NCBI GenBank assembly: GCA_050253335.1
Contig: JBFWJG010000033.1
Location: 1 to 29,090 of the forward strand
DNA length: 29,090 bases
Direction: 5' to 3'
DNA from: Deferribacterales bacterium
GTDB taxonomy: Bacteria > Chrysiogenota > Deferribacteres > Deferribacterales > Geovibrionaceae
A program made the translations under genes and the position numbers. This document shows, in pieces, positions 2,257 to 25,346 of this stretch (the stretch's first letter is position 1; each line of letters begins with the position of its first letter). Under the pieces are notes generated by a model, which saw only the letters and a list, made by a program, of their open reading frames with translations, was not told where the DNA came from and ran no database searches.

Positions 2257-2272
2257 TGGCACAGGCATTGCT
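2257..2272 (+). promoter_or_regulatory. Sigma-54 -24/-12 promoter of nifA
   Basis: TGGCACAGGCATTGCT matches TGGCAC-N5-TTGCW; GG-N10-GC spacing is exact. Confidence 0.85.
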
Positions 2273-2283
2273 TGTTATTATAC

Positions 2284-3954
2284 ATGGAAAAGAGATTAAG
2301 CTACTATAAACTTCTTCTGAATACAATATACGACATAAGCCTTGAGCTGAACTCCAAAATCAGCGAAAGCGCCGCGCTACAGAATGTGATGAACATTATG
2401 AGCAACAACCTCAATATCCAGAACGGAACTATTCTCACTGTGGAACCCGACACCGAAATGCTTATCCCGAAAGCATCTCACGGCCTCAGCAGAACAGCTC
2501 TTGCGGAAATGGTTTACAAAAGCGGAGAGGGGATGGTGGGGAAGGTGTTTAAATACGGTTTTCCCATAATGCTCCACGACATAAGCCTTGAACCGGATTT
2601 TAAGGATAAGATCAAAAGGAAAAATGACGAGAAAATCAGTTTCATTGCCGTTCCCATCACTCACGGAAACGAAAAGATAGGCGTTCTCGCAGTGGACAAG
2701 CTTTACCGTGAGGTGGTCAGCTATGAGGCAGAGGTGGATATCCTCAAGATGATCGCCGCTCTTGTTGCTTCGTTCATGCATAAAATGAAGCTGATAAACA
2801 GCGAAAAGAAACAGCTTATAGAGGAAAAGGAGCGTCTGCGCAGCGAGGTTGCGGGCAAATTTTCCGTTAAAGGGCTTGTGGGCGGAAGCAAGCTCATGCA
2901 GGAAGTTCTTAAAAAAATCTCACAGGTGTGCCGCACAAAAACCACCGTGCTTATCAGAGGCGAAAGCGGAACAGGCAAGGAGATGGTCGCAAAGGCGATC
3001 CACTATTCCGGCGACCGTTCGCAGAAGCCTTTTGTGGCGGTAAACTGCGCCGCCATTCCCAGAGAGCTGATTGAGAGCGAGCTTTTCGGCTATAAAAAAG
3101 GCGCCTTCACAGGAGCCACCGCGGATAAAAAAGGGAAGTTTGAGCTTGCCGGAGGCGGAACCATCTTCCTTGATGAAATAGGGGACATGCCCCTTGAAGC
3201 GCAGAGCAAGCTGCTCCGTGTTCTTCAGGAGATGAGCATAGAGCGTGTCGGCGGTTCGGAACCAACGCCTGTGGATGTGCGGGTGATAGCCGCCACAAAC
3301 AGAAATCTCGAAAACGCTGTCCGCTCGGGAGATTTCAGGCTGGATCTCTATTACAGGCTGAATGTTGTCTCCATCTTCCTTCCCCCTCTGCGCAAGCGCA
3401 GGGAGGACATCCCCGAACTCGCCAAAACCGCCCTTGACAAATTCAACTCAAATTACGGCACAAGACTTAAAATATCGCCGGATGTTTTTCCTCTGCTTAT
3501 GAAATGTTCATGGCCGGGCAACATACGTGAGCTTGAAAACTGCATAGAGCGGGCCGCCCTTTCTGCTTCGAGTGATGAAATAACCCCTGCGGAGTTCACA
3601 TGCTCCAGAGGGGAGGTCTGCCTTGCACAGCTTATGGATAATAACGGAAGCTCAGGCTGCGGCGAGCACGCCGTCTGTATAGAGTCGCTTAATATGGACA
3701 CCGGCGGCGGGGAACAGAAGTTTTTCTGCGAGCATTATCCCAAGTCCTCCGAAAGACCTGCGGATGAAGCGGTGAAATCTGCCAAGCCTCTTTCCGAGAT
3801 ACCCCCCGCAGTTAATGATGAGAGACAGATGGTCATTGACGCCCTCGAAAAAACCGGCTGGGTTCAGGCAAAGGCGGCGAGGCTTCTGGGAATGACAGTG
3901 CGCCAGATCAACTACCGCATAATGAAATTCGGCATAGAAGTGAAAAAAATATAA
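2284..3954 (+). CDS. nifA: Nif-specific sigma-54 transcriptional activator NifA (GAF-AAA+-HTH)
   Basis: N-terminal GAF; GESGTGKE, GAFTGA, FLDEIG and WPGNIREL motifs; NifA-type C-terminal GWVQAKAARLLGMTVRQINYR. Start set at ATG 2284 because TTG 2272 lies in the promoter. Confidence 0.93.
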   Translation: MEKRLSYYKLLLNTIYDISLELNSKISESAALQNVMNIMSNNLNIQNGTILTVEPDTEMLIPKASHGLSRTALAEMVYKSGEGMVGKVFKYGFPIMLHDISLEPDFKDKIKRKNDEKISFIAVPITHGNEKIGVLAVDKLYREVVSYEAEVDILKMIAALVASFMHKMKLINSEKKQLIEEKERLRSEVAGKFSVKGLVGGSKLMQEVLKKISQVCRTKTTVLIRGESGTGKEMVAKAIHYSGDRSQKPFVAVNCAAIPRELIESELFGYKKGAFTGATADKKGKFELAGGGTIFLDEIGDMPLEAQSKLLRVLQEMSIERVGGSEPTPVDVRVIAATNRNLENAVRSGDFRLDLYYRLNVVSIFLPPLRKRREDIPELAKTALDKFNSNYGTRLKISPDVFPLLMKCSWPGNIRELENCIERAALSASSDEITPAEFTCSRGEVCLAQLMDNNGSSGCGEHAVCIESLNMDTGGGEQKFFCEHYPKSSERPADEAVKSAKPLSEIPPAVNDERQMVIDALEKTGWVQAKAARLLGMTVRQINYRIMKFGIEVKKI

Positions 3955-3976
3955 CAAACATAAACAATACAATGAA

Positions 3977-3992
3977 TGTAGGTAAGCTTACA
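3977..3992. promoter_or_regulatory. NifA upstream activator site TGT-N10-ACA
   Basis: TGTAGGTAAGCTTACA, near-palindromic, about 90-100 bp upstream of the predicted start. Confidence 0.8.
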
Positions 3993-4022
3993 AAAACTGG
4001 ACAAGGCTTGGGTGTTCTTCTC

Positions 4023-4035
4023 TAAGTAGCTGATA
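4023..4035 (-). promoter_or_regulatory. IHF-like binding site
   Basis: Minus strand TATCAGCTACTTA fits WATCARNNNNTTR and lies between the UAS and the sigma-54 box. Confidence 0.55.
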
Positions 4036-4052
4036 AAACAGTTCTTCATATC

Positions 4053-4068
4053 TGGCACGCTGCTTGCA
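4053..4068 (+). promoter_or_regulatory. Sigma-54 -24/-12 promoter of the ferredoxin-nifZ unit
   Basis: TGGCACGCTGCTTGCA, consensus match. Confidence 0.92.
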
Positions 4069-4099
4069 AAAGTAACTGAAAAGATTAAGGAGGAACACA

Positions 4100-4363
4100 A
4101 TGGCCTATATCACAGGAATTACCAAAAGCGGCGGCACATGGACGCCTGAATATGTCATGGGTGTGGACAACGAAAAGTGCATCGCCTGCGGACGCTGTTA
4201 TAAAGCCTGCAGCTTTAGCTGCCTTTCACTTCACGAAGATGACGATGATGACTCCGCAAGACGCTACATGGTGCTTGAAAACGACAAGGACTGTGTGGGC
4301 TGCAAGGCCTGTGCCGTTGCCTGTCCCAAGAAGTGTTTCACCCACGCACCTATGGAGGCGTAA
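4100..4363 (+). CDS. fdxB: Nif-specific ferredoxin III (2[4Fe-4S], FdxB/FdxN type)
   Basis: TxxGxTWTP N-terminus; CIACGRCYKAC and CVGCKACAVACP motifs separated by an acidic EDDDDD loop; AAGGAGG RBS. Confidence 0.88.
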   Translation: MAYITGITKSGGTWTPEYVMGVDNEKCIACGRCYKACSFSCLSLHEDDDDDSARRYMVLENDKDCVGCKACAVACPKKCFTHAPMEA

Positions 4364-4364
4364 T

Positions 4365-4658
4365 ATGGAATTCAGAGAAAACCAGAAGGTCAGAGTTCTC
4401 GGCTGCACAAAAAGTGACGGAACCTGCGCAGGCTGCAACCGCGGAAAGGTGGTTGCCGAAGAGGGGGAGGAAGGTTTTGTCTGCCAGATTACAGAGTTCC
4501 TCTTTGAGCCTGTTGTAGTGGTTCATTTCCTTGAAACCAATAAAAAGGTTGGTTTCAGGAAGCATGAGCTTGAAATTATCGAAGATTACGATCCGGACGA
4601 GATGATCTGGATAAAAGTTAAGAAGAACGGCTCTCAGAATACGGTTTCAACATCGTAG
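4365..4658 (+). CDS. nifZ: Nitrogen fixation protein NifZ
   Basis: KVRV...DGT..G...G..GFV..I..FL....VVHFLE...VG.R..EL pattern of NifZ; GGAGG RBS and ATG 1 nt after the ferredoxin stop. Confidence 0.8.
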   Translation: MEFRENQKVRVLGCTKSDGTCAGCNRGKVVAEEGEEGFVCQITEFLFEPVVVVHFLETNKKVGFRKHELEIIEDYDPDEMIWIKVKKNGSQNTVSTS

Positions 4659-5437
4659 CGCCCGCCTATCACAAGGTATTCCAGCTCACCGCTGAATGAC
4701 CTTCGGGGCAGGGCTTCCGAGAAGTACACTATCTTTGTGTAAGGCACTTCCGCCTTGATTATCTTACTGCCGAACTGTTCTGCTATCTCTTTTTCCGAAG
4801 TGAAAGAGGAGAGGGAGTTCAGTTCGATGCAGTATTTTCTTTTTGAGAGCTGGCTGATTATTATGTGATCGCTCAGGTCGTTTACACCCCTGTAGAGGGT
4901 TATGGTGGGAACATGATTTTCGCAGTATGCCTTAATTATTGTCTGGGTGTATGTGTACAGCAGGTCGAGCTGGGAAAACATGCTGTTTTTGTTTGTTCGG
5001 GAATTCATCCACTCCTGAAGATAATCGTAATACTCCTTGGAGTAAAGCCCCGGAATGCTCTGCCCGTGGTAGAAGGGAATAAGCCCGAAGCGGTTTTCCA
5101 CCCATCCTTTAAGCACTGCTCCGGCGGAGTTGTTGGAGTCAAAAAGCCAGCTTTTCAGAAGCCTTATGTAACTGCCGACCTTTTTTCCGTTTACCCTTTC
5201 CTCCAGCGCGAAAAGCTCGTTCATGTAGTTTTCAAAGAAAACGGAGGCATCGTCTATGCTCCCGGCGGAGGCGATAATCTCAAAAAGCCAGCGGTGGTAT
5301 TCAAGAACGCCGTCAATTGTGATGGGTATCACGCCGACATTATATTCCCTGCTCACAAAAAGCTTGGCGGGAATATTGATTTTATTCGTGCTGTGGTAAT
5401 AAACGCCTGCCTTGTGGCTGTCATCAATATTTATCAT
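4634..5437 (-). CDS. draT: NAD+-dinitrogenase-reductase ADP-ribosyltransferase DraT
   Basis: HSTN N-terminal motif, WLFDSN...GAVLKGWVENRFGL, QLDLLY, LYRGVN, LNSLSSFTS and catalytic ExEYLVIGG. Confidence 0.92.
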   Translation of the reverse strand: MINIDDSHKAGVYYHSTNKINIPAKLFVSREYNVGVIPITIDGVLEYHRWLFEIIASAGSIDDASVFFENYMNELFALEERVNGKKVGSYIRLLKSWLFDSNNSAGAVLKGWVENRFGLIPFYHGQSIPGLYSKEYYDYLQEWMNSRTNKNSMFSQLDLLYTYTQTIIKAYCENHVPTITLYRGVNDLSDHIIISQLSKRKYCIELNSLSSFTSEKEIAEQFGSKIIKAEVPYTKIVYFSEALPRRSFSGELEYLVIGGRYDVETVF

Positions 5438-5459
5438 GATCGAAATATGCCAATACAAT
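5431..5459 (+). promoter_or_regulatory. Putative sigma-70 promoter of draG
   Basis: TTATCA-N17-TACAAT. Confidence 0.45.
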
Positions 5460-5472
5460 TGGAAGTTTGCAA
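5444..5472 (-). promoter_or_regulatory. Putative sigma-70 promoter of draT (leaderless geometry)
   Basis: Minus strand TTGCAA-N17-CATATT with an extended TGn, followed 6 nt later by the ATG. Confidence 0.5.
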
Positions 5473-6363
5473 ATGAAAAATGATGTTTATGAAAGGGCGC
5501 TTGCCGCTTATCTCAGTTTTGCAGTCGGCGATGCCCTCGGCGCCACAACGGAATTTATGCTTCCCAGAGAAATCAAAGATAAATATGACATACATGACAA
5601 GATAATAGGCGGAGGCTGGCTTCATCTGAAGGCGGGGAATGTCACCGATGATACGGAGATGTCGCTTGCTCTGGGCGACAGCATTATGGAAAACGGAGGC
5701 TACACAGTTAAGGGAGCGGCGGATCACTTCGCAAAGTGGATGAAGAAGAAGCCTGTGGACATAGGCAGCACGGTGAGAAGGGGGATTGTCAATTACCTTA
5801 CAAAAGGCTCCGTGGTGTCTCTGTACTCAACATTCTCCGCGGGAAACGGCGCGGCCATGCGGAATCTGCCCGTTGTTCTGTACTGCCTGAAGGACTGGAC
5901 ATGGTTCGAGGAGATAACCATATCCCAGTGTCATATAACTCACAACAACGAACTCTCAGACATGGCGACCGTTGTTCTCGGCGAGGTCATGAAGGTTCTT
6001 CTGGAAACAGGGGACAAAAAGGCCGCTCTTGATATAGTTTCAGAATTTATCAGGAAAGCACCTTCGTTCTCACACTCAAAATACAGCGGCGAGGCATCCG
6101 GCTACATTAAGGACACGTTCAGAACTGTCATGCACTTTTTCTTTGATTCAGACAACCTGTACGAAACTGTTGTCAGAACTGTTAATCAGGGCGGAGACGC
6201 AGACACCAACGGTGCCATAGCGGGAATGCTGGCGGGCGCGCTTTACGGTATGGACGGAATACCCCAGCGGTGGCTGAAAGCACTGGATCAGGATGTTGTA
6301 AGGCTTATTACAAAACAGACCGAAGATCTGCTGAATGCCCCGATGAACGTGATTTTGTTGTAA
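5473..6363 (+). CDS. draG: ADP-ribosyl-[dinitrogenase reductase] glycohydrolase DraG
   Basis: AVGDALGATTEF, GGGWLHLKAGNVTDDTEM, SAGNGAAMR and VNQGGDADTNGAIAGMLAGA motifs; adjacent to draT and nifH. Confidence 0.93.
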   Translation: MKNDVYERALAAYLSFAVGDALGATTEFMLPREIKDKYDIHDKIIGGGWLHLKAGNVTDDTEMSLALGDSIMENGGYTVKGAADHFAKWMKKKPVDIGSTVRRGIVNYLTKGSVVSLYSTFSAGNGAAMRNLPVVLYCLKDWTWFEEITISQCHITHNNELSDMATVVLGEVMKVLLETGDKKAALDIVSEFIRKAPSFSHSKYSGEASGYIKDTFRTVMHFFFDSDNLYETVVRTVNQGGDADTNGAIAGMLAGALYGMDGIPQRWLKALDQDVVRLITKQTEDLLNAPMNVILL

Positions 6364-6406
6364 GGTTTGTCAGCTTATCCCTTCAAACCATACAAAAACC
6401 TTACAA
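6358..6406. promoter_or_regulatory. 11-bp perfect inverted repeat upstream of nifH (candidate split NifA enhancer)
   Basis: TTGTAAGGTTT (6358-6368) and AAACCTTACAA (6396-6406), 27-nt spacer. Confidence 0.55.
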
Positions 6407-6413
6407 TTAATAA

Positions 6414-7391
<978 letters not shown>

Positions 7392-7407
7392 TTCCGCAAG
7401 GATGCCC

Positions 7408-7480
7408 GCTTTCTTTTCGGCCGCGGCCGCTCATGCTTTTTAAAAGCGACACAGAAGCGGCCTGACTGCGGGGGGAAAGC
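7408..7480 (+). other. nifH-nifD intergenic RNA stem-loop (mRNA stability/attenuation element)
   Basis: GCTTTCTTTTCG/CGGGGGGAAAGC outer stem with 4 G-U pairs; inner GGCCGCT/AGCGGCC stem. Confidence 0.6.
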
Positions 7481-7524
7481 AAGAACGCGAGACTTTTTGA
7501 CCCCAATAAAACGAGGTAGACAGC

Positions 7525-8967
7525 ATGAGCACTATAGATAAAAAACAGGCCGAGGAGTTTATAGAGTCGGTCATCTCCCAGTATGAGGAGAAAACGTATA
7601 AGGACAGGAAGACCCACATAGAGGTTGTTGAACCCGGACAGGAAAAGTGCGGCGTTAAGTCCAACAGGAAATCCCGCCCCGGCGTTATCACCATGAGAGG
7701 ATGTGCATATGCAGGCGCCAAAGGCGTGGTGTGGGGTCCCATAAAGGATATTATCAACGTAAGCCACGGTCCCGTGGGCTGCGGCCAGTACTCTTGGTCA
7801 TCCAGACGTAACTACTATAACGGAACAACAGGTGTGGACAGTTTCGGTACAATGCAGTTTACGTCTGACTTTCAGGAAAAAGACATAGTTTTCGGCGGCG
7901 ATGCGATGCTGAAAGCCCTTCTTCTGGAAGCTGACAAGCTTTTCCCGCTCAACAGAGGGCTCAGTGTTCTCTCTGAATGTCCCATCGGTCTTATCGGTGA
8001 TGATATTGAAGCGGTTTCAAAAGAGATCTCCAAGGAGATAGGCAAGCCTGTTATCCCCTGCCGCTGTGAAGGTTTCAGAGGCGTTTCCCAGTCTCTCGGT
8101 CACCACATAGCAAACGACACCATCCGTGACTGGATATATGAAAAAGATATGGTCGGCCAGAAATTCGAGAAAGGCCCGTATGATGTAGCCCTCATAGGGG
8201 ACTACAACATAGGCGGCGATATATGGTCATCAAGGAAAATTATTGAGGACATGGGACTTAACCTTGTTGCTCAGTCAACCGGTGACAGTACGTTCAGCGA
8301 GCTTGCCAACGTTGCTCAGGCGAAAGTGGTTCTCATCCACTGCTACCGCTCAATGAACTACATCTCACGCTACATTGAAGAAAAGTACAATGTGCCGTGG
8401 CTTGAGTTCAACTTTTTCGGCCCCACACAGATCATCAAATCCATGCGCAAAATTGCCGCTATGTTTGATGACAAAATCAAAGAGCAGACAGAAAAAGTCA
8501 TCGCTGAGAAATATCAGCCTTACTTTGAAAAAATTGTCGCCAAATACAGACCCAGACTTGAAGGGAAGAAGACAATGCTTTTCGTTGGTGGTCTGAGACC
8601 CAGACACACAATGCCCGCCTTTCAGGATCTCGGTGTTGAGATACTGCTCACAGGGTATGAGTTTGCCCACGGTGACGACTACCAGCGTACCCTTGAATAC
8701 CTCGACAGCACAACCATCATGGTTGACGACATGTCGGAATTCGAGATGGACAACTTCCTTGAGAAGTATAAACCCGACCTCTTCGGTTCAGGTATTAAAG
8801 AAAAATACCAGACACAGAAGTCCGGCATCCCTTTCAGGCAGATGCACTCATGGGACTACTCAGGCCCCTACCACGGTGTGGAAGGCTTCGGAGTATTTGC
8901 CAGAGATATGGACATGGCAATTAACGGAGCAGTTTGGAAAAACATCAAAGCTCCGTGGAAAAGCTGA
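7525..8967 (+). CDS. nifD: Nitrogenase MoFe protein alpha chain
   Basis: P-cluster Cys (RGCAYAG, HGPVGC, SECPIG); GVSQSLGHH; FeMoco ligands HCYRSMNY and FRQMHSWDY. Confidence 0.99.
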
Positions 8968-8996
8968 TAATCAGAGCCGTACAGGAGAGGTAAATC

Positions 8997-10514
8997 ATGA
9001 GCAAAGATATTAAAATTAAAGATCATATAACCCTTTTCGAGGACGAGCGCTTCGGAGAGATGTTCAAGAGAAAACGCGCGCTCTATGAGAACGCGGCAAC
9101 TGAGGAAGAGGTTGCGAAAACCCTTGAGTGGACACTCGGTGAGGAATACAAGGAGCTTAACTTCAAAAGGGAGCACCTTGTTGTTAACCCTCTTAAATCC
9201 TGCCAGCCTCTGGGCGCGCTTTACGCTGCCATAGGTTTTGACGACACTATGCCTTACGTACACGGTTCACAGGGCTGTGCGGCTTACTTCCGCTCACATT
9301 TCTGCCGTCACTTTAAAGAGCCTTTCCCCGCTGTTTCCGACTCCATGACGGAAGACGCCGCGGTTTTCGGCGGACACAACAACATGTATGTGGGGCTTGA
9401 TAACGTTTACAAGCTCTACAAACCCGGTATGGTTGCCATATGCACATCATGTATGGCGGAAGTTATCGGAGATGACCTCAACAACTTCGTTAAAAATGCC
9501 AAAGATCAGGGCAATGTTCCGGAAGGCTCGATCATTACACATGCGCACACCCCATCATTCGTAGGTTCGCATATCACAGGCTATGACAACATGCTCTCAA
9601 GCATGCTTGCTCAGGTCGGCGAGAAAACAGGCGAAGTGAAAGACAGAATCAACGTTATCCTCGGGTTCGATACTTATATAGGCAACTTCCGTGAGATAAA
9701 AAGGATTCTCGGTCTGTTCGGAGTGGATTTCATCCTCCTGAGCGATCCTTCCTACAACCTCGATTCACCCACTGACGGACATTACAAAATGTTCAACGGC
9801 GGAACAAAGATTGCTGACCTGAAAGATGCGCCTAACTCAAAAGCTACACTTATCCTTCAGAAATACGCTACTGCAAAAACAATAGAGTTCATTCAGAAAG
9901 AATGGGGACACCCTGTAAAAGTGGTTAACCCCTTCGGTATCAAAGGTTCAGATGACCTTATGATGGCAATCGCCGAGCTTACAGGCAAAGAAATTCCTGC
10001 TGAAATCGAAAACGAAAGAGGCAGATTCATAGATGCCATAGGTGACTCATACTACTGGGTACACGGCAAAAGCTTCTCTCTGAACGCTGATCCTGACTAT
10101 GCCTTCGGTCTTACGCGCATGGTTATGGAACTCGGCGGGGAGATCAAGCATGTTCTGCTCACCAACGGCACAAAAGACTGGGAAGCGGACACTAAAGCGC
10201 TGCTTGCTTCATATCCTCAGGGGAGCGAAGCAGAAGTTTACTCAAACAAGGATATGTGGCACTTCCGCTCACTGCTTGCCACTGATCCCAGCGATTTCAT
10301 CATAGGCAACAGCTTCGCAAAATATCTTATGAGAGATACGGGCATTCCGCTTATCAGAATCGGTTTCCCCATGTTTGACAGGCAGTTCCTCCACAGATAC
10401 CCCACCATAGGCTACATGGGCGGACTGAACCTCCTCAACTGGATCGTCAACACAATCCTTGACGAAACAGACAGAAAAACGATGCACACCACGAGCTACG
10501 ACGTAATCAGGTAG
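8997..10514 (+). CDS. nifK: Nitrogenase MoFe protein beta chain
   Basis: NPLKSCQPLG, HGSQGC, TSCMAEVIGDD, HTPSFVGSH and C-terminal YDVIR. Confidence 0.99.
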   Translation: MSKDIKIKDHITLFEDERFGEMFKRKRALYENAATEEEVAKTLEWTLGEEYKELNFKREHLVVNPLKSCQPLGALYAAIGFDDTMPYVHGSQGCAAYFRSHFCRHFKEPFPAVSDSMTEDAAVFGGHNNMYVGLDNVYKLYKPGMVAICTSCMAEVIGDDLNNFVKNAKDQGNVPEGSIITHAHTPSFVGSHITGYDNMLSSMLAQVGEKTGEVKDRINVILGFDTYIGNFREIKRILGLFGVDFILLSDPSYNLDSPTDGHYKMFNGGTKIADLKDAPNSKATLILQKYATAKTIEFIQKEWGHPVKVVNPFGIKGSDDLMMAIAELTGKEIPAEIENERGRFIDAIGDSYYWVHGKSFSLNADPDYAFGLTRMVMELGGEIKHVLLTNGTKDWEADTKALLASYPQGSEAEVYSNKDMWHFRSLLATDPSDFIIGNSFAKYLMRDTGIPLIRIGFPMFDRQFLHRYPTIGYMGGLNLLNWIVNTILDETDRKTMHTTSYDVIR

Positions 10515-10665
10515 TGTTACAGTTCCATGGACGGAACTGCGCCGTGCCGGAGCGAAGGCTTGCTTTGCAAGGCGCGAGCGGTTTCAGCCGAACCGCAGGA
10601 CGCAGGTTCGGCGATGGAAAGTAGAAAAACGATGTACACCACAAGCTATGACGTAATCAGATAGT
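10473..10665 (+). repeat. 43-bp direct repeat of the nifK 3' end (10473-10515 and 10623-10665)
   Basis: 39/43 identical, offset exactly 150 bp, same reading frame. Confidence 0.95.
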
Positions 10666-10754
10666 AAGGTATATACCGCTGCGGGGCGGCGGCAAAAGTC
10701 CGCCCCCCGTTTTATCCGTTTCCGGGCGAACCTCAGGACGCAGGTTCGGCGATG
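10589..10754 (+). repeat. 28-bp repeated hairpin CGAACCKCAGGACGCAGGTTCGGCGATG (10589-10616 and 10727-10754)
   Basis: 27/28 identical; each copy folds as CGAACC/GGTTCG with CAGGACG in the loop. Confidence 0.9.
10683..10713 (+). terminator. Terminator-like or stabilising hairpin between nifK and nifT
   Basis: GGGGCGG/CCGCCCC stem followed by CCGTTTT; the U tract is short, so termination is likely partial. Confidence 0.45.
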
Positions 10755-10779
10755 ATTTAATTAGAGGCAGGGCTGCAAA

Positions 10780-10986
10780 ATGAAAGTAACAGTTAGAGAA
10801 ACGCCGAAAGGCATTAATATTTACGTTCCCAAGAAGGACATCGAAGCGCACGTGATCAAGATAGAGCAGGCAGGGGCATGGGGCGGAGTGTTTGAACTTG
10901 ACAACGGCTGGGTTCTGGAATTTCCCGCTTTGGAGGAAGTGCCCAAACTCCCGGCTACATTCGAGGCAAAAGTACTCTCTAAATAA
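10780..10986 (+). CDS. nifT: Nitrogen fixation protein NifT/FixU
   Basis: 68 aa with YVPKKDIE, WGG...L.NGW and LP.T.EA, typical of NifT. Confidence 0.9.
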   Translation: MKVTVRETPKGINIYVPKKDIEAHVIKIEQAGAWGGVFELDNGWVLEFPALEEVPKLPATFEAKVLSK

Positions 10987-10998
10987 AAGGAATGTGCC

Positions 10999-12357
10999 AT
11001 GGCTGCAAAATTTGACCATCTTACCGAAGTTGACAGCTGTTCTGAAAATAAAAAGAAAAGCACCGCAGAAAAGGCAAAAAAATGCGCCAAACCGACACCC
11101 GGCGCAACAATGGGCGGGTGCGCCTTTGACGGGGCACAGATCGTTCTCCTTCCCGTGGGGGATGCCGCACACCTCATTCACGGCCCCGCCACATGCGTAA
11201 GCCAGAACTGGAACAACAGGGGCAGCAGGAATCTTCACGGTCAGTGCTATAAAATGGGCTTCTCCACCGATGTTACCGAGATGGACGTTGTTTTCGGCGG
11301 GGAGAAGAAGATTACCGATAAATGCGTGGAGATAGCGGGCAGATACCCGGTAAAAGCTATCTTTGTCTACACCACCTGCGTCACCGCTATGATAGGCGAC
11401 GATGTTCCCACTGCCTGTAAAAAGGCGGCGGAACTCACCGGAATCCCAGTGATACCCGTGGAATCTCCCGGCTTTATCGGCAATAAAAACTTCGGCAATA
11501 AGATAGCGGGCGATGCTCTTCTTGAGTACGTAATAGGCACTAAAGAGCCTGAAAAAACCACAGAATACGACATAAACATCATAGGTGACTACAACATAGC
11601 CGGCGAACTCTGGCAGATGATGCCTGTTTTCAGAGAGCTGGGGATAAACGTTCTCTCAAGCCTGACAGGCGGAACCTCATATGACGAAATAGCATACGCC
11701 CACAGGGCGAAATGCACGCTTGTCATATGCAGCAAGGCTCTGCTCACTCTGGCGGAAGGGCTTAAACGCAGATACGGAATACCGTTCGCGGAGGGTTCAT
11801 TCTACGGACTGGGCGAGATAGAGAAGACTCTGCTCTCCGTTGCGGACATGCTGGGCTCTGATGAACTCAGGGCAAAAATTCACAGCTATGTTGAAAGGAA
11901 AAACGCTGAGACTCTGGCGGAGATAGCACCCTATAACGCTGTTCTCAAAGGTAAAAGAGTTTTCGTTTATACTGGCGGGGTGAAAAGCTGGTCAACGATT
12001 TATCAGCTTGAGGAACTCGGCATGGACGTGATCGGAACCAGTACAAGGAAATCGACAGAGCAGGACATAGAAAAAATCAGGGAACATTTTGAAGGAACAC
12101 AGAAAATGCTCCTTGAAAAAGGGGATGGCCGCATCCTGCTGAACATTCTTCAGAAGGAGAGAGCGGATCTTCTCCTTGCCGGAGGGAGAAACATGTATAC
12201 CTCCATCAAAGGCAGATACCCTTTTGTGGACGTGAATCAGGAAAGGATACACGGCTACGCGGGCTACACTGGCATGATTGAGCTGGCAAAACAGCTTGCA
12301 TACACTCTTGCCTCCCCTGTCTGGGAAGTGGCAAAGCGCAAGGCTCCGTGGGAGTAA
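10999..12357 (+). CDS. nifE: FeMo-cofactor scaffold NifE
   Basis: PGATMGGCAFDGAQ, HLIHGPATC, TCVTAMIGDD, YTGGVKSWS, DVNQER and APWE end. Confidence 0.96.
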   Translation: MAAKFDHLTEVDSCSENKKKSTAEKAKKCAKPTPGATMGGCAFDGAQIVLLPVGDAAHLIHGPATCVSQNWNNRGSRNLHGQCYKMGFSTDVTEMDVVFGGEKKITDKCVEIAGRYPVKAIFVYTTCVTAMIGDDVPTACKKAAELTGIPVIPVESPGFIGNKNFGNKIAGDALLEYVIGTKEPEKTTEYDINIIGDYNIAGELWQMMPVFRELGINVLSSLTGGTSYDEIAYAHRAKCTLVICSKALLTLAEGLKRRYGIPFAEGSFYGLGEIEKTLLSVADMLGSDELRAKIHSYVERKNAETLAEIAPYNAVLKGKRVFVYTGGVKSWSTIYQLEELGMDVIGTSTRKSTEQDIEKIREHFEGTQKMLLEKGDGRILLNILQKERADLLLAGGRNMYTSIKGRYPFVDVNQERIHGYAGYTGMIELAKQLAYTLASPVWEVAKRKAPWE

Positions 12358-12361
12358 GTCT

Positions 12362-13693
12362 ATGGAAACAACAGCAAAAACCGGACAGACCAATCCTCTG
12401 AAAAAAAGTCAGGTGCTGGGCGGAAGCTTAGCCGCCCTCGGAATAAAAGGGGCTATGCCTCTTCACCACGGCTCGCAAGGGTGCACGGCATTTACCAAAA
12501 CGTTTCTCACTCAGCATTTCAGGGAGATAGTACCGATGCAGACCACAGCCCTCACCGACATAGCAACGATTATGGGCGAGGACTGGAACCTGCTTGAAGG
12601 CATGAAAAACGTAATAGAGAAGCATACGCCCGAACTCCTTGTTCTTCTCTCCACAGGAATCTCCGATACCAGAGGGGACGATTTTGAGCGGAGCATAAAG
12701 GATTTCAGGAAGAAATATCCGGAATATGCGGGAACGAAAATTGTTTACTCCACGACACCCGATTTCGTGGACGATGCTCACCTCGGCTACACAAATACGC
12801 TGAAAGCAATATTCAGACAGCTTGCTCCGGCGAAGATGGAAACCGAAAAGGGGCGGGTGAACATTCTCCCCGCATTCGCCATGACCGCGGGAGACATAGA
12901 CGAGATAAGGGATGTTGCGGAATCATTCGGACTGCGCCCCGTGTTTCTGCCGGATATTTCAGAAAGCATGTCCGGCTGTGCGGATTTCTTCTACAGCACA
13001 GCCCCCGGCGGGTGCACTGTTGAGGATATTTTAACCGCAGGATCGGCGGAACTCAACATAGCGGTCGGCAGGACAACGGGTGAGATAGCGGAACAATTGA
13101 AAGAGCTTACTGATGTTCCTTTTGTAACCTTCGATTCTCTCATAGGGATCACCGAAACGGACAGATTCATAGAGCTGCTTATGAAGCTTTCCGGCAAGAC
13201 GGACGTTCCCGCAAAAATCAAAAAACAGCGCAGAACGGCAATAGATGTAATGCTTGACGGACACTTCAATTTCGGCGGAAAGAAAGCCGCTGTCGCCATT
13301 GAGCCGGATCTCCTGCTCGGCGTATCAAAGTTTCTTCGTGATGAGTTGGGGATCACTGTACAGATAGGCATCACCACCTTTTCTTCCCCTTTTCTTCAGG
13401 ATGTTCCTGCGGAAGAGGTGATCAAAGGTGATCTGGAAGATATAGCCCTGAAGGGGGGAGGAGTATCCCTTGTCATTTCAAACACAAACGCTCATTTAAC
13501 CTCGGAGATAGTGCACGCTCCATTATTGAGGATGGGTATCCCTGTGAAGGACAGGATAGGGCAGTTTATAAAGGTTTACACCTGTTACAGGGGCGCGGCG
13601 TATTTCGCCTCTGAGATAGGGAGCATTCTCCTTGAACGTGACGAGCACGAGTCATGGGAGGAGCAGACAGAGAACTACAGGAGGAGTTTATGA
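12362..13693 (+). CDS. nifN: FeMo-cofactor scaffold NifN
   Basis: NPLKKSQVLG, HGSQGCTAF, HFREIVPMQTTA and MLDGHF; ATG 4 nt after the nifE stop. Confidence 0.95.
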   Translation: METTAKTGQTNPLKKSQVLGGSLAALGIKGAMPLHHGSQGCTAFTKTFLTQHFREIVPMQTTALTDIATIMGEDWNLLEGMKNVIEKHTPELLVLLSTGISDTRGDDFERSIKDFRKKYPEYAGTKIVYSTTPDFVDDAHLGYTNTLKAIFRQLAPAKMETEKGRVNILPAFAMTAGDIDEIRDVAESFGLRPVFLPDISESMSGCADFFYSTAPGGCTVEDILTAGSAELNIAVGRTTGEIAEQLKELTDVPFVTFDSLIGITETDRFIELLMKLSGKTDVPAKIKKQRRTAIDVMLDGHFNFGGKKAAVAIEPDLLLGVSKFLRDELGITVQIGITTFSSPFLQDVPAEEVIKGDLEDIALKGGGVSLVISNTNAHLTSEIVHAPLLRMGIPVKDRIGQFIKVYTCYRGAAYFASEIGSILLERDEHESWEEQTENYRRSL

Positions 13694-14058
13694 AAGTAGC
13701 GTTCTGTACAAACAGCATGAAAGAGGTGGATGAACACTTCGGCAGGGCAGCTTCCGTCGCGGTTTATGATGTCAGCGCCGAAGGTTCGGAGTTTGCCGAA
13801 CTGCGCACATTCAGACCCATTGACGCTGATGCGGATCATAAGATTGATATTAATACAAAAGCCGGAGCGCTTAACGACTGTTCGATCCTTTATCTCACGG
13901 AGATAGGCGGGCCTGCCGCCGCTGTTGTTGTGCGCAATAAGATTCACCCCATCAAGGTGGACGACAAAACGCCCATTGACGAGCTTCTGGACAGTCTTGT
14001 GAAAAAGCTGAACGATTCTCCTCCGCCGTGGCTGAGAAAGGCGATACAGGTCAAATAG
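13690..14058 (+). CDS. nifX: FeMo-cofactor carrier NifX
   Basis: MKVAF...VDEHFGRA, IGGPAAA, IHPIKV and PPPWLRKA; GGAGGAG RBS; ATGA overlap with nifN. Confidence 0.93.
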   Translation: MKVAFCTNSMKEVDEHFGRAASVAVYDVSAEGSEFAELRTFRPIDADADHKIDINTKAGALNDCSILYLTEIGGPAAAVVVRNKIHPIKVDDKTPIDELLDSLVKKLNDSPPPWLRKAIQVK

Positions 14059-14059
14059 C

Positions 14060-14518
14060 ATGGCGGGCATGTCTCTTTCCCAGAGAACAGGCTGGGAGGT
14101 CTCCGGCTTTACAGACACCCTTGTCAGAAAGATGAGGGCTTTCGACACATACGGCTCATGGAAAAAACTTGATGACACTCAGGTTCTGAGCCGCTATGTG
14201 AAGAGCCGTGAGGACAGAAAAAAGATAGACACATCAGGCGCGGTGGACATTCAGACCGTGTGGCGGATACGGATGTTTTACGAGGCTGTGGCGATGCTCA
14301 CCGAGCAGAACACGGGAAAGCTCTGCTACGCCGCCCTTGATCTGGGCTATGAGGGTTTCGGCAGGGCGTTTGTGATATATGAGGACTATATACTCTGCTG
14401 CGATACCCTGAGAAATGCCCACAAGTTCGGGTTTGCCTCCATTGATGAACTGGCGGCGGCGGGAGAGACAAAAACGCTCAGAGCCTGTGAAAAGGCCGCG
14501 GAACTGGGCATTATCTAA
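14060..14518 (+). CDS. NifX-associated nitrogen fixation protein (DUF269)
   Basis: RAFDTYGSW, EGFGRA and LRNAHKFGFAS motifs; canonical position after nifX. Confidence 0.88.
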   Translation: MAGMSLSQRTGWEVSGFTDTLVRKMRAFDTYGSWKKLDDTQVLSRYVKSREDRKKIDTSGAVDIQTVWRIRMFYEAVAMLTEQNTGKLCYAALDLGYEGFGRAFVIYEDYILCCDTLRNAHKFGFASIDELAAAGETKTLRACEKAAELGII

Positions 14519-20704: not shown

Positions 20705-20806
20705 CTCTGACGTCATAAGGATTATGCTTTATTTGTAAGCTGTTGTGTATTATAAGGCATAAAATGTCTTAATTATAGCGAGTAACGAGGGTGTTTTTTG
20801 AGCGGT

Positions 20807-22147
20807 ATGAAAAAAGTAGTTCTTAAAAAAGGGATTGACCTTCCTTTGAGCGGAGCTCCCGAGCAGAAGATTTACGAGTCGGGAAGCGTGAGCAGATATG
20901 CCGTCACAGGAGACGACCATATCGGTCTCAAACCCGCGATGAATGTTCAGGAAGGGGATTCGGTGAAATCGGGCGATCTGCTTTTCACTGATAAAAAAAA
21001 TAAGGGCGTCAAATTTGTTTCACCTTTTTCCGGCAGGGTTCTCGCGGTCAACAGAGGCGAGAAACGCAGATTCATCTCCCTCGAGATAGAGATTGACGGC
21101 AGGGAAGGGGCTGATTTCAGAACATTCGGCGACCCGAAGAAAATCGATGCAGAAACTCTCCGCACGGCAATAAATGATGCCGGTCTCTGGACATCCTTCA
21201 TAAGCCGTCCATTCGGGAAAACTCCCGCTGCGGACGCATCAGCGGACTATATCTTTGTAACCGCCGCGGATACCCGTCCCCTTGCCGCTGATGTGAAAAC
21301 GGCGATCGCAGACAGGGAAGAATATTTTGCGGCAGGCGTCTCCGCTCTTGAGAAGCTGGCAGGCAAGAAACTTTATGTCTGTGTGGGTTCTGTGGACTCG
21401 GTTCCTGTTGTTGAGGGTGCAAAAACCGAATATGTCTGTTTTCAGGGGCCGCACCCTTCAGGCCTTGCGGGAACCCATATACACTTCCTCGCCCCTGCTC
21501 ACGCAGGAAACCGCACATGGGAGATAGGCTGGCAGGACACGGCGGCCATAGGCGAACTTCTGCTTACAGGGAAAATACCTGTTCAGACGGTTATCTCACT
21601 CTGCGGAACAGGCGCTGTGAAGCCGAGGCTGATCAGAACCGTGCGCGGCGCATGGCTCGGCGATCTTCTTAAAAATGAAATCAGCGCGGAGGATGTCCGT
21701 GTGATAAGCGGAAGCGCACTCCACGGACGCAAGGCGGCTGCTCCTGCGGATTACCTTCACAGATACATAAATCAGGTTACCCTCATTCCCGAGGGGAGGG
21801 ACAGACGTTTCATGGGCTGGGCAGGGCCGGGAACGGACATGCACTCCGTGAAGCGCTCGTTTCTCACAGGTTTCGGCATGGGCAGACCTGTTTTCAACAC
21901 TAACCTGAACGGCGGCAAACGCCCCATTGTTCCCGTTGGGAGCTACGAGGACGTGATGCCTCTGGACATTCTGCCCACTTATCTTCTTCGGGCTGTTTCT
22001 GTCGGGGATTTCGAAACAGCGGAGAAGCTCGGCTGTCTTGAGCTTCTGGAGGAGGATTTATCCCTGTGTACTTACGCCTGCCCCGGCAAGCAGGACTATG
22101 CGCCTATGCTCAGGCAGGTGCTTGATTTGTTGGAGAGGGAAGGCTGA
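20807..22147 (+). CDS. nqrA: Na+-translocating NADH:quinone reductase subunit A
   Basis: KKGIDLPLSGAPEQ, GPHPSGLAGTHIHF and LGCLELLEEDLSLCTYACPGK. Start is ATG 20807 or TTG 20798. Confidence 0.96.
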   Translation: MKKVVLKKGIDLPLSGAPEQKIYESGSVSRYAVTGDDHIGLKPAMNVQEGDSVKSGDLLFTDKKNKGVKFVSPFSGRVLAVNRGEKRRFISLEIEIDGREGADFRTFGDPKKIDAETLRTAINDAGLWTSFISRPFGKTPAADASADYIFVTAADTRPLAADVKTAIADREEYFAAGVSALEKLAGKKLYVCVGSVDSVPVVEGAKTEYVCFQGPHPSGLAGTHIHFLAPAHAGNRTWEIGWQDTAAIGELLLTGKIPVQTVISLCGTGAVKPRLIRTVRGAWLGDLLKNEISAEDVRVISGSALHGRKAAAPADYLHRYINQVTLIPEGRDRRFMGWAGPGTDMHSVKRSFLTGFGMGRPVFNTNLNGGKRPIVPVGSYEDVMPLDILPTYLLRAVSVGDFETAEKLGCLELLEEDLSLCTYACPGKQDYAPMLRQVLDLLEREG

Positions 22148-23340
22148 TGAAAGGACTGCTTAATTTTCTGGAAAAATACGAGCATCACTTCAAAAAGGGC
22201 GGAAAGCTGGAAAAATGGTATCCGGTTTTTGAAATGACCGATTCTTTCCTTTACACCTCTCCGGAGGTGACCAAAGGATACACACATATAAGAGACGGGC
22301 TTGATCTCAAAAGGATAATGACCACCGTGGTTCTTGCACTTATCCCGTGCATTCTCATGGCGTTTTACAATACGGGGCTTCATGCCAACTATGCGGCGGA
22401 GGCGGGCACTCTCTCTGAAGGGTGGCGGCTTGGCGTAATGGCGGCGGCAGGCGGGGCGGACAGTTCGTCCGTCGGTTCATGCTTCCTTCACGGCGCGCTT
22501 TACTTTCTGCCAGTCTATATCGTCACCCTTGCGGTGGGCGGGTTCTGGGAACTGCTTTTTGCAGTGGTGAGAAAGCATGAAATAGGCGAGGCGTTCCTTG
22601 TCACATCCCTTCTTTTCCCGCTGATTCTTCCTCCGACTATCCCTCTCTGGCAGGCGGGAGTGGCTATTTCCATCGGTCTTGTCATGGGCAAGGAGGTCTT
22701 CGGCGGAACGGGGCGTAACTTTGTCAACCCAGCGCTGATTTCAAGGGCTGTTCTCTTCTTCTCCTACCCTGCGGCAATGACCGGCGACAGGATATGGATT
22801 CCGGCGGATACCGTGACATATGCGACTCCCCTCGGGTCCATGGCTCTTGGCAATGATTCAGGCTTAACATGGATGGACGCTTTTCTCGGCTTCATGCCCG
22901 GGTCAATGGGTGAAACATCAGCTCTGGCGTGTCTGTTCGGTGCGGCAGTGCTTATCGCCACAGGCATAGGCTCATGGCGGATAATGCTTTCAAGCGTCAT
23001 CGGACTTGTTTCCCTTGTGATGGTTTTTAACGGAATAGGGAGTGAAACGAACCCAATGATGAACCTCAGCCCCGAGTGGCATCTTGTTCTCGGCGGATAT
23101 GCGTTCGCTACGGTTTTCATGGCAACAGACCCCGTTTCCGCTTCAATGACGAGGACAGGCATGTATGTTTACGGATTTTTAATCGGAGCTATGACGGCGC
23201 TCATAAGGGTAGTCAACCCCGCATTTCCTGAAGGGGCAATGCTTGCGGTGCTTTTCGGGAATGTTTTTGCCCCGGTCATAGACCAGTATGTGATAAAAGC
23301 GAATATAAGAAGGAGGGGGCGCAGATATGCCGGATGTTAA
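22147..23340 (+). CDS. nqrB: Na+-NQR subunit B
   Basis: THIRDGLDLKRIM, VGGFWE, KEVFGGTGRNFVNPAL, ATPL FMN site and FMATDPVS. Confidence 0.97.
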   Translation: MKGLLNFLEKYEHHFKKGGKLEKWYPVFEMTDSFLYTSPEVTKGYTHIRDGLDLKRIMTTVVLALIPCILMAFYNTGLHANYAAEAGTLSEGWRLGVMAAAGGADSSSVGSCFLHGALYFLPVYIVTLAVGGFWELLFAVVRKHEIGEAFLVTSLLFPLILPPTIPLWQAGVAISIGLVMGKEVFGGTGRNFVNPALISRAVLFFSYPAAMTGDRIWIPADTVTYATPLGSMALGNDSGLTWMDAFLGFMPGSMGETSALACLFGAAVLIATGIGSWRIMLSSVIGLVSLVMVFNGIGSETNPMMNLSPEWHLVLGGYAFATVFMATDPVSASMTRTGMYVYGFLIGAMTALIRVVNPAFPEGAMLAVLFGNVFAPVIDQYVIKANIRRRGRRYAGC

Positions 23341-24115
23341 TTCCCGAAAATTTACATTTATAGTCTCTCTCGTCCTTTCCGTTGTCTGCTCGGTTCTGGT
23401 TTCGGCGGCGGCTGTTTCGCTCAAGCCGATTCAGGACAAAAACCGTGAGCTCGACAGGCAGAAGAACGTTCTCGCCTCTGCGGGGCTTCTGGGTGAAGGT
23501 TCTGATATAGAAGAGACATTCAGGAGCATTTCCGTTCTGGCTGTTGATGTCCGTGACGGAAGTTTTGAGAAAAAACCGGGATTTGACGCGGTTTTCTTCA
23601 AGGATTTCAAGGCAATGAGCACTTCAAACTCGACATCGGTACGGCTGACAAAAGAGCAGGACACAGCGGGCATAGCAAGCATATCCGCAATGCAGCCCGT
23701 TTATATCGTCATGAAGGACGGCAAGCCTGATAAAATAATTCTCCATGTTTACGGCAGCGGCCTTTGGTCCACAATGTACGGCTTTCTGGCTCTGGAGGGT
23801 GACGGAAGAACCGTTGCGGGGCTTACCTTCTATGACCAGAAGGAAACTCCCGGTCTCGGCGGGGAGATTGACAATCCCAACTGGAAAGCGCAGTGGGCCG
23901 GAAAACAGGTTTACGGTGATGACGGCTCCCTGAAACTCGGTGTGGGCAGCGGGAAGATTGACCCTGCCTCTGCGGACGGGGCGCATCTTGTTGACTCCAT
24001 ATCCGGCGCATCCCTCACCAGCAGAGGGGTAAACGAGCTTGTGCGTTTCTGGCTCGGCGAAAACGGCTACGGCAGATTTCTCTCAAAAATAGAAGAGGAG
24101 GGGTTCAATGGCTGA
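23327..24115 (+). CDS. nqrC: Na+-NQR subunit C
   Basis: N-terminal [20 protein letters not shown] and [13 protein letters not shown] motif. Confidence 0.95.
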
Positions 24116-24728
24116 CGGCACAATGAAAGTATTCACTGACCCCGTTTTCAGGAACAATCCCATCGCCGTGCAGGTTCTGGGCATCTGCTCCGCACTGGCG
24201 GTTACCTCGAATCTGAAAACAACACTTGTCATGGCGCTTGCGGTTACTGTGGTTCTGGGGCTCTCAAACCTCTCCCTGAGCATAATAAGAAACTACATCC
24301 CCTCAAGCATAAGGATAATAGTGGAAATGACGATTATCGCCTCACTTGTTATCATAGCGGATCAGTTTATAAAGGCTTTTTTCTTCGACATAAGCAAACA
24401 GCTCTCCGTTTTTGTGGGGCTTATCATAACCAACTGCATCATAATGGGCAGGGCGGAGGCTTACGCAATCAAAAACCCCCCTTTTTCCAGTCTGCTTGAC
24501 GGATTGGGCAACGGAGCGGGCTACGGTCTTGTGCTTATCGCCGTGGGCACCGTGCGTGAGCTCATCGGCGCAGGCAAGCTTCTGGGCTTTCAGGTGCTTC
24601 CCCTCGCAACGGAGGGAGGGTGGTACACGCCGAACGGACTGTTCCTTCTGGCTCCCAGCGCCTTTTTCCTCATAGGGCTTATTATATGGGGTGTTCAGCT
24701 TATAATATCCAAGGGGGCTAAGGCATGA
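24108..24728 (+). CDS. nqrD: Na+-NQR subunit D
   Basis: [18 protein letters not shown] and [20 protein letters not shown]. Confidence 0.97.
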
Positions 24729-25336
24729 CAGAGATCTACTTGAGCCTTCTGGTTAAATCAATATTTGTGGAAAACATGGCGCTTGCCTTCTTTCTGGGCA
24801 TGTGCACTTTCCTTGCGGTTTCAAAACAGGTGGAAACGGCGACAGGGCTTGGTATCGCCGTTATAGCCGTGCAGACCATCACCGTTCCGGTGAATAACCT
24901 TATTTACCAGTATATCCTCAAGGACGGCGCACTGGCGTGGGCAGGGCTTGATAATGTTGACCTCACGTTCATCGGCCTCGTGACCTACATAGGCGTAATA
25001 GCCGCCATAGTTCAGGTGCTTGAGATGGGGCTGGACAGGTTCGTGCCCAAGCTCTACAACGCTCTGGGTATTTTCCTGCCGCTCATAACGGTTAACTGCG
25101 CCATCCTCGGCGGCACGCTGTTCATGGTGCAGAGGGACTACACCTTCGGAGAGAGCGTGGTTTACGGTTTCGGCTCCGGAGCGGGCTGGGCTCTCGCCAT
25201 CATCGCAATGGCCGGAATCAGGGAAAAGATGAAGTATGCCGATGTCCCCAAAGGACTGGATAATCTGGGCATTGTGTTTGTAATAGCGGGGATCATGGCG
25301 ATTTCGTTCATGCTCTTCTCCGGCATACAGCTTTAA
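24725..25336 (+). CDS. nqrE: Na+-NQR subunit E
   Basis: [32 protein letters not shown] and FSGIQL end. Confidence 0.97.
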
Positions 25337-25346
25337 GGGGGCAAAC

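What the first reader, a model, noticed from the sequence alone, without database searches (positions are those of the whole stretch)
10473..10665. In-frame second copy of the nifK 3' end, diverged mostly at synonymous sites, that could encode a NifK C-tail mimic peptide
Seen: the last 43 bp of nifK recur exactly 150 bp downstream at 39/43 identity. Three of the four differences are synonymous third positions (ACG/ACA, TAC/TAT, AGG/AGA) and one is His to Tyr. The frame stays open from the nifK TAG to the second TAG. This gives small ORFs 10614-10664 (MESRKTMYTTSYDVIR) and 10527-10664 (45 aa), both ending like NifK (RKTMHTTSYDVIR). Each copy is followed by a different structured spacer and then the same 28-bp hairpin, so the region reads as two tandem 'nifK tail + 3' UTR' units. 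Known: the NifK C-terminal (Y/F)DxxR is conserved and lies at subunit interfaces of the MoFe protein. Inference: the synonymous bias suggests both copies evolved under coding constraint. Options are (a) a scar of allelic replacement or integration at the nifK 3' end, (b) a translated peptide mimic affecting MoFe protein assembly, or (c) a recombination or readthrough route to an alternative NifK tail. With only four differences the statistics are weak, and neither ATG has a clear SD.
Basis: partly seen in the sequence, partly recalled or inferred. Interest (0 to 1): 0.8.

Follow-up and report, generated by a model that had tools for sequence, protein, structure and literature searches.

The report
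Mobile hairpin element duplicates gene tails
The repeated end of the nitrogenase gene nifK is real, but it is the footprint of a small hairpin-forming mobile element that sits in over a hundred places in this bacterium and often copies the end of the neighbouring gene; it is probably not a mini-protein, and the enzyme that moves the element was not found.

Summary
The 43-bp nifK-tail repeat is real (39/43) and not a misassembly. The 107 bp between the copies is one member of a three-hairpin element (E) with about 150-190 copies in this Deferribacterales genome. In 27 of 72 scorable E clusters the upstream sequence is repeated behind an E copy (14-71 bp, mostly gene 3' ends), usually joined as element tail|GA. 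One congener has no element and no duplication at nifK. In two others the copy is out of frame, so the in-frame layout is not conserved. The synonymous bias is real genome-wide (33:13). It is mostly explained by copies tracking, and swapping with, the real gene end, so it does not need translation, though a few synonymous changes private to copies remain unexplained. A peptide mimic is unlikely (about 4%). What is new is the element's behaviour: long, variable target duplications, a fixed join, no terminal inverted repeats, and none of the tested RT, Y1 or DDE_Tnp_1 families found in a closed congener genome. It resembles TwoAYGGAY RNAs, REPIN clusters and IS1634-type long repeats but matches none of them. 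Verdict: new variant of a known kind; mechanism inferred, enzyme unknown.

The parts
8997..10514 (+). nifK, MoFe protein beta subunit
   Evidence: TIGR01286, 731 bits
10473..10515 (+). X: last 14 codons of nifK (the duplicated target; its GA join point is at 10474)
10519..10625 (+). Element E, full copy: H1 (about 10520-10539, loop ATGGAC), conserved core, H2, H3 (about 10587-10612, GGA-containing loop) and tail. The model match overlaps the first bases of X'. It carries a 1-nt insertion in the core that is shared with the G002 and G003 nifK copies.
   Evidence: CM R1 91.9 bits; alignment and fold; RNA z -4.1, DNA z -3.9
10623..10665 (+). X': second copy of the nifK tail, most likely non-coding
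10527..10664 (+). Small ORFs 10527-10664 and 10614-10664; start codons supplied by the element; frame not conserved in G002, G003 or X4
10681..10714 (+). Ancestral nifK 3' hairpin with a short T run, also present in element-free G001. Terminator-like by eye only; it did not pass the terminator scan.
   Evidence: 0 sites; z -2.25
10717..10754 (+). Truncated second copy of E (H3 only); full length in G003 and, by the 10716->10520 joint, in X2 and X3
10780..10986 (+). nifT
   Evidence: TIGR02934

Best explanation
X' is the target duplication made when a non-autonomous three-hairpin element (E) entered behind the nifK stop codon in the ancestor of G000, G002 and G003. SHOWN: E is a high-copy family; it is often flanked by long, variable repeats of the adjacent gene end; the join is element tail|GA; empty and filled orthologous sites exist; copies track each species' own allele. 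INFERRED: a free 3' end at the target is extended with, or ligated to, a single-stranded copy of E (RNA-templated or ssDNA). The new end then re-anneals tens of bases away by 1-7 nt of microhomology, and repair synthesis copies X twice. Afterwards X-X' and E-E recombination expands the unit to (XE)n, collapses it, or refreshes X' from the gene. The X/X' differences are therefore mostly changes that were filtered in a real gene, which gives the synonymous excess without translation. The weaker claim 'by-product of E, not a peptide gene' I put at about 0.9. Whether E has a job as a CsrA-binding RNA is separate and untested.
For: Family: 144 core hits in 92 clusters against 1 in shuffled DNA; 190 nhmmer hits; 22 of 32 pairs with compensatory change in 21 copies. 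Duplications: 41 of 101 full elements have a flanking repeat scoring >=14, against 0.95% of 2943 mismatched pairs (array-interior copies included). Per cluster in G000: XEX 13, (XE)nX 7, (XE)n 7, E only 24, EE without X 21. GA within two bases of the join in 37 of 43 joins (18 of 22 in G000), counted by eye. 17 of 89 clusters start within -2..+7 nt of a same-strand stop. Empty versus filled: nifK empty in G001; the C55 locus is empty in G002 and G001, XEX in G000, tandem in G003; a 7-nt repeat at L148/L193 against an empty G000 site. Allele tracking at C114, C79, C41, C9 and C47; different join points at C41 in G000 and G003; pop-out product at C29 in G003. nifK orthologues in all three congeners have Tyr, so His is a change in the gene.
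Against: No mobilising enzyme found: RVT_1 in 1 of 6 genomes (G001 only, with no E beside it); Y1_Tnp in 0 of 4 congeners; DDE_Tnp_1 in 0 of 5. 45 of 72 scorable clusters show no X copy. At C29 and C9 the repeat runs into H1 of a resident element, which fits local re-duplication better than arrival at an empty site. An empty site can also be a pop-out. Some synonymous changes are private to copies: two at nifK and three of five at L061 against three relatives. The synonymous share still exceeds my 'purifying gene plus neutral copy' expectation of 0.44 (30 of 43 after dropping one duplicate and two stop-codon changes; p=6e-4). Periods are multiples of three in 18 of 36 (p=0.03).
Confidence: 0.55

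Rival explanations
1. Local re-duplication without a dedicated enzyme. A resident E stalls or folds in the nascent strand, its tail slips back to an upstream GA, and X-E is copied in tandem; partial loss of the last E leaves X-E-X.
For: (XE)n arrays in G000 (7), G003 (9) and the loci (5); repeats that include H1 of the resident element; no enzyme found; G003, X2 and X3 carry a second whole E at nifK; stems almost purely Watson-Crick (H2 617 WC, 6 GU).
Against: G002 nifK has X-E-X' followed by the ancestral, element-free 3' region; G000 C55 has X-E-X' with an intact downstream gene start. Slippage does not explain spread to about 90 loci or a fixed tail position with only about 2 nt of homology.
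Confidence: 0.22
2. Allele import. DNA from a related strain carrying gene-end plus E recombines by homology in the gene and joins illegitimately at an upstream GA, leaving the old gene end behind as X'.
For: Pairs with many synonymous and almost no other differences: 5:0 at L061, 6:1 at L127 (by eye). The G000 C55 copy carries the G003-type allele. E at nifK has 0 of 100 differences between G000 and G002 while four-fold sites differ at 0.20.
Against: Many copies are identical to the local gene. The same join is inherited across species while X' tracks the local allele (C9). It does not explain entry into new loci.
Confidence: 0.13
3. X' is translated (small ORF or read-through) as a NifK C-tail mimic that affects MoFe protein assembly.
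For: Open frame; ORF apparently intact in X2 and X3; two copy-private changes are synonymous; 18 of 36 periods in frame.
Against: Frame or start lost in G002, G003 and X4; +T at 10514 in X3 and X4 breaks read-through; absent from G001. The same layout lies behind unrelated genes, where only 7 of 36 are open to read-through and 13 of 36 have an in-frame ATG in the element. No clear ribosome-binding site by eye.
Confidence: 0.04
4. Misassembly of a repeat.
For: The genome is in 142 contigs; one array holds an N gap; no laid contig spans the whole stretch.
Against: The same join is in G002, in single-contig G003 and in X2-X4; the copies differ at 4 sites.
Confidence: 0.01

Closest known systems
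TwoAYGGAY RNA motif (Rfam RF01731; PMC2864571; extended in bioRxiv 10.64898/2026.09.22.753630)
   Same: Hairpins with ANGGAN/AYGGAY loops, intergenic, tens to hundreds of copies, proposed Csr/Rsm sites, mobile-like expansion called unresolved in the preprint. CsrA is present in 5 of 5 genomes.
   Different: No RF01731 hit. Three separate hairpins rather than two on a basal stem. Clusters are direct tandems, whereas the preprint's doublets are 68% divergent. The preprint's main text has no occurrence of 'duplicat' or 'target site' (supplement not seen).
REP/REPIN clusters with RAYT (PMC3116915)
   Same: Short structured non-autonomous repeats; ordered clusters are tandem repeats that include flanking sequence.
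   Different: E is not a pair of inverted REPs. No Y1_Tnp in 4 of 4 congeners. Single copies carry long flanking repeats.
IS1634 / IS1549 long variable direct repeats (as summarised in PMC2266710)
   Same: Target repeats of long, variable length (8-514 bp); the paper says no mechanism had been proposed.
   Different: Those are autonomous DDE elements. E is 107 bp and non-coding, has no terminal inverted repeats (one search found none in the region), and has a sequence-specific join.
MJRE palindromic repeats of Methanocaldococcus (known to me only from AI note e1-2523424)
   Same: Said to insert at gene 3' ends and copy a stretch of target.
   Different: Archaeal; no sequence comparison made; the primary paper was not retrieved.
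SINE/LINE target-primed reverse transcription (recalled, no call)
   Same: Variable long target duplications, sequence-biased 3' join, 5' truncation with microhomology.
   Different: No RVT_1 in G000, G002 or the closed G003; RNA intermediate not shown.

Membership tests
TwoAYGGAY (RF01731) | Match to the Rfam model | tested here: not met
   0 matches at E<=1 in window 10300-10900; none among 6 chance-level hits in 5 loci
TwoAYGGAY (RF01731) | Two hairpins with AYGGAY-type terminal loops | tested here: met
   H1 loops ATGGAT 29, ATGGAA 25, AAGGAT 11; H3 CAGGATG 54, CAGGACG 25
TwoAYGGAY (RF01731) | Both hairpins on a common basal stem | tested here: not met
   Consensus fold shows three independent arms
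TwoAYGGAY (RF01731) | CsrA/RsmA binding (proposed, not shown, in the source) | not testable with these tools
   csrA present in 5 of 5 genomes; binding untested
REP/REPIN-RAYT | RAYT (Y1_Tnp) gene in the genome | tested here: not met
   0 in G000-G004; 1 in G008, which had no E match
REP/REPIN-RAYT | Two REPs in inverted orientation | tested here: not met
   Copies lie in direct orientation
REP/REPIN-RAYT | Tandem clusters that include flanks | tested here: met
MITE of a DDE element (IS1634-like) | Terminal inverted repeats | tested here: not met
   0 inverted pairs of 12 nt or more in 10200-11200; ends not complementary in A1
MITE of a DDE element (IS1634-like) | Long variable target repeats | tested here: met
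   14-71 bp; 7 bp at L148/L193
MITE of a DDE element (IS1634-like) | Cognate transposase | tested here: inconclusive
   DDE_Tnp_1 in 0 of 5; other DDE families were not searched
SINE-like retroelement | Reverse transcriptase acting in trans | tested here: inconclusive
   RVT_1 only in G001; divergent RTs or host polymerases not excluded
SINE-like retroelement | RNA intermediate | not testable with these tools
   No RNA holder listed
Translated sORF | Start and frame conserved in relatives | tested here: not met
   Lost in G002, G003, X4; apparently kept in X2, X3; absent in G001

The most novel reading that the evidence does not exclude
E is a bacterial SINE-like element: a 107-nt structured RNA or ssDNA without its own enzyme that is inserted by a target-primed route at GA sites, probably by a host enzyme or an unrecognised one, and makes 7-70 bp target duplications. 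It would then keep a cycling, selection-filtered spare copy of gene 3' ends while spreading CsrA-type loops into 3' UTRs. The same route could explain the unresolved copy-number expansion of TwoAYGGAY RNAs.
Probability: 0.2. Interest if true: 0.85.

Novelty: new variant of a known kind. Interest (0 to 1): 0.52.

Why it matters
For nitrogenase biology the finding is ordinary: no new peptide. For mobile DNA it gives a clean test set: dozens of dated junctions, empty, filled and popped-out orthologous sites in four congeners (one closed), a fixed join motif, and none of the tested enzyme families. How ANGGA-loop repeats multiply is called unresolved in a 2026 preprint, and no mechanism was on offer for long variable target repeats in the IS4 survey; both become testable here. 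It is also a caution for small-ORF scans: a synonymous bias in duplicated gene tails can arise without translation.

Tried and rejected
Rfam: no family. Enzyme searches: RVT_1, Y1_Tnp, Cas1 (weak hits in 3 of 5, none in G000 or G002), GIY-YIG (a small stand-alone one only in G002; the others lie in about 600-aa frames), DDE_Tnp_1. The Y2_Tnp search (73) is uninformative because no control rang. A motif scan of 2522 G000 ORFs gave 3 HUH-like hits that look by eye like HIT/TatD-type proteins (labels recalled). ORFs beside 26 loci showed no shared partner gene by eye. Viral contigs: 4 pattern hits, 0 model matches. Metagenome scan: 37 loci, of which I tested 9 with the model (only 14-20 bits, judged chance); the other 28 were not examined. 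No RNA holder listed, which says nothing on expression. Promoter and terminator scan: 0 sites. G-U versus A-C asymmetry could not tell the working strand (H1 9 vs 19, H2 6 vs 1). A DGR-type A-to-N rule was rejected by eye: two differences are at T, and there is no RT. A formal background for the GA join was not computed; the count is by eye. Literature searches listed no paper describing this family or its duplications; these cover only the open library, and most hits were seen as listings only.

Full report
1. Observation. The repeat is as described: 10473-10515 and 10623-10665, 39/43, spacing 150, with two copies in the genome. The frame is open between the two TAG codons. The genes are nifK and nifT. 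The organism lies in the Deferribacterales (record titles of pattern hits); the genus name Geovibrio comes only from earlier AI notes.

2. The spacer is a dispersed element. Bases 10516-10622 gave 113 blast hits in the genome. A core motif found 144 hits in 92 clusters against 1 in shuffled DNA; a profile found 190, 144 of them nearly full length. Twenty-one copies fold into three arms with compensatory change at 22 of 32 pairs. H1 and H3 carry ANGGA-type loops. Rfam has no match. A covariance model matched 21 of 68 phylum genomes, with 57 of 57 scored candidates in each of the four congeners and few, weak matches elsewhere. An earlier AI note (e1-7660909) described the same family for its loops; I confirmed the family and the loops, not a function.

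3. The element goes with long target repeats. 41 of 101 full-length copies have a flanking direct repeat scoring at least 14, against 0.95% of 2943 mismatched flank pairs. This count includes array-interior copies, so the per-cluster figure is fairer: 27 of 72 scorable G000 clusters (13 XEX, 7 (XE)nX, 7 (XE)n); 33 clusters with a truncated first element and 3 at contig edges were left out. Lengths run from 14 to 71 bp. 46 of 89 clusters follow a same-strand stop and 17 start within -2..+7 nt of it. The element-to-copy join reads roughly AAG(A/T)CA|GA. GA starts within two bases of the join in 37 of 43 joins (18 of 22 in G000). I counted these by eye, after dropping 5 repeated rows and 7 rows whose left flank is an element remnant; six loci recur between genomes; no formal background was run. 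At several sites the element's first bases match the target for 3-7 nt (C1, C62, L067). The pattern reaches other genera: 2 of 22 distant hits show a gene-tail repeat (L111, L127).

4. History at nifK. G001 has no element and one tail. G002 has X-E-X' at 149 bp followed by the ancestral 3' region. G003 has X-hairpin-E-X'-hairpin-E at 212 bp. The nifK elements of G000, G002 and G003 share a private extra C, so there was one origin. All three congener NifK proteins end in TMYTT; the His is a change in the G000 gene. Contigs of X2-X4 hold the same join. X2 and X3 show a 10716->10520 joint (an intact second E); X4 lacks one base at 10625; X3 and X4 have +T at 10514. X2, X3 and a minor X1 contig have ACG at 10643, and these plus X4 have TAC at 10649, so ACA and TAT are recent changes in the copy. 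The in-frame ATG at 10614 seems kept in X2 and X3 and is lost in G002, G003 and X4.

5. The synonymous bias. Over 43 gene/copy pairs in G000 and relatives there are 33 synonymous and 13 non-synonymous differences. Neutral expectation is 0.28, and 0.44 if the gene is purified and the copy neutral (p=1.4e-4; 30 of 43 and p=6e-4 after dropping one duplicate and two stop-codon changes). But copies track their own genome's allele at orthologous loci (C114, C79, C41; C47/L061/L207; C9), sometimes with the same inherited join and sometimes with a different one. At C29 the G003 gene ends with the sequence that is the copy in G000, consistent with pop-out. Where relatives allow polarising by eye, most synonymous differences are changes in the gene or alleles seen in another genome's gene (C45, C1, L150, C79, nifK AGG). 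X' thus behaves as a snapshot of a real gene end, refreshed by and exchanged with the gene. Residue against this: copy-private synonymous changes at nifK (2), in the G002 nifK copy (1), L036 (2) and L061 (3 of 5); a 6:1 pair at L127; and periods in frame in 18 of 36 (p=0.03). Allele import from unsampled strains could explain these; weak coding-like constraint is not excluded. Only 7 of 36 pairs are open to read-through and 13 of 36 have an in-frame ATG in the element.

6. Mechanism. Shown: family, structure, repeats, join motif, and empty, filled and popped-out sites (nifK; C55 empty in G002 and G001; of 60 G002/G003 element loci, 20 lacked a profile hit in G000, 18 were filled and 22 had no joint orthologue, with few clean junctions). 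Inferred: primed insertion of a single-stranded E copy with microhomology re-annealing, then tandem recombination. The strand and chemistry are open. The loops fit CsrA-binding RNA (csrA in 5 of 5; proposal as cited in the preprint). The invariant GCG-N-AGC with free N and the near-pure Watson-Crick stems fit ssDNA (PMC13037366). No RVT_1, Y1_Tnp or DDE_Tnp_1 was found in G000, G002 or the single-contig G003; other families were not searched. E at nifK is unchanged over 100 nt between G000 and G002 while four-fold sites differ at 35 of 174, which points to selection on E or recent exchange.

7. Comparison and novelty. It works like REPIN tandem clusters and IS1634-type long variable repeats and looks like TwoAYGGAY, but it fails a defining test for each. 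Papers seen: 10.64898/2026.09.22.753630 (abstract, outline, 12 passages; supplement not seen, and it may discuss flanking repeats), PMC2864571 (4 passages, supplement hits), PMC3116915 (12 passages), PMC2266710 (4 passages), PMC13037366 (abstract start, 12 passages), PMC11893778 (listing only). MJRE elements are known to me only from an AI note; SINE/TPRT features are recalled. Searches listed no description of this family's duplications. Loci other than those are cited by contig because their gene names would be recalled.

8. Verdict. Observation confirmed; peptide-mimic reading not supported (0.04); the copy is an element footprint (about 0.9), most likely made by primed insertion (0.55). 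New variant of a known kind; interest 0.52; most novel case 0.2 probability, 0.85 interest.

Noticed in passing
G000:C41:7712-8125; L171: A longer relative of E (different 5' half) flanked by a roughly 45-bp repeat of a gene's 5' end, which restores the gene start downstream. G004 has 20 weak matches, the two inspected being about 144 nt long.
   Followed up: no
G000 against L139-L196: Orthologous E copies swap H1, H2 or H3 as whole modules while keeping pairing (17 pairs printed), which suggests conversion among dispersed copies.
   Followed up: partly
E core, window 10546-10553: Invariant GCG-N-AGC with free N (C39, A38, G32, T23) equals the stable DNA mini-hairpin of PMC13037366; distant relatives have GCG-NN-AGC with GNRA-type loops, which also fits RNA. 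The nifK copy has an extra C here.
   Followed up: partly
G000 C41, C26, C10, C79; L073: Where the target reads GATC at the join, the copy often reads GCTC or GTTC. Unexplained.
   Followed up: no
G000 C3, C12, C17, C30: E appears joined into H1 of another E, at or near the GA of its loop, giving 91-94 bp periods.
   Followed up: no
L257-L258; G000:C47:11560-12330: Other palindromic repeat families lie between or in place of E copies; one resembles Ssn/NTS-type repeats (label recalled; PMC11893778 seen as a listing only).
   Followed up: no
L031:1219-2721: Stand-alone 500-aa reverse transcriptase in G001 with no E nearby.
   Followed up: partly
L113-L136: Weak E-like matches (1-2 scored per genome) in 10 of 21 genomes of family f7; two sit just before tRNA-like sequence by eye (L114, L124).
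   Followed up: partly
window 2272-14518 and 20798-26573: nifA, a draG-like gene, nifH-D-K-T-E-N-X and a NifX-associated gene, then an nqrA-F operon; ordinary.
   Followed up: no
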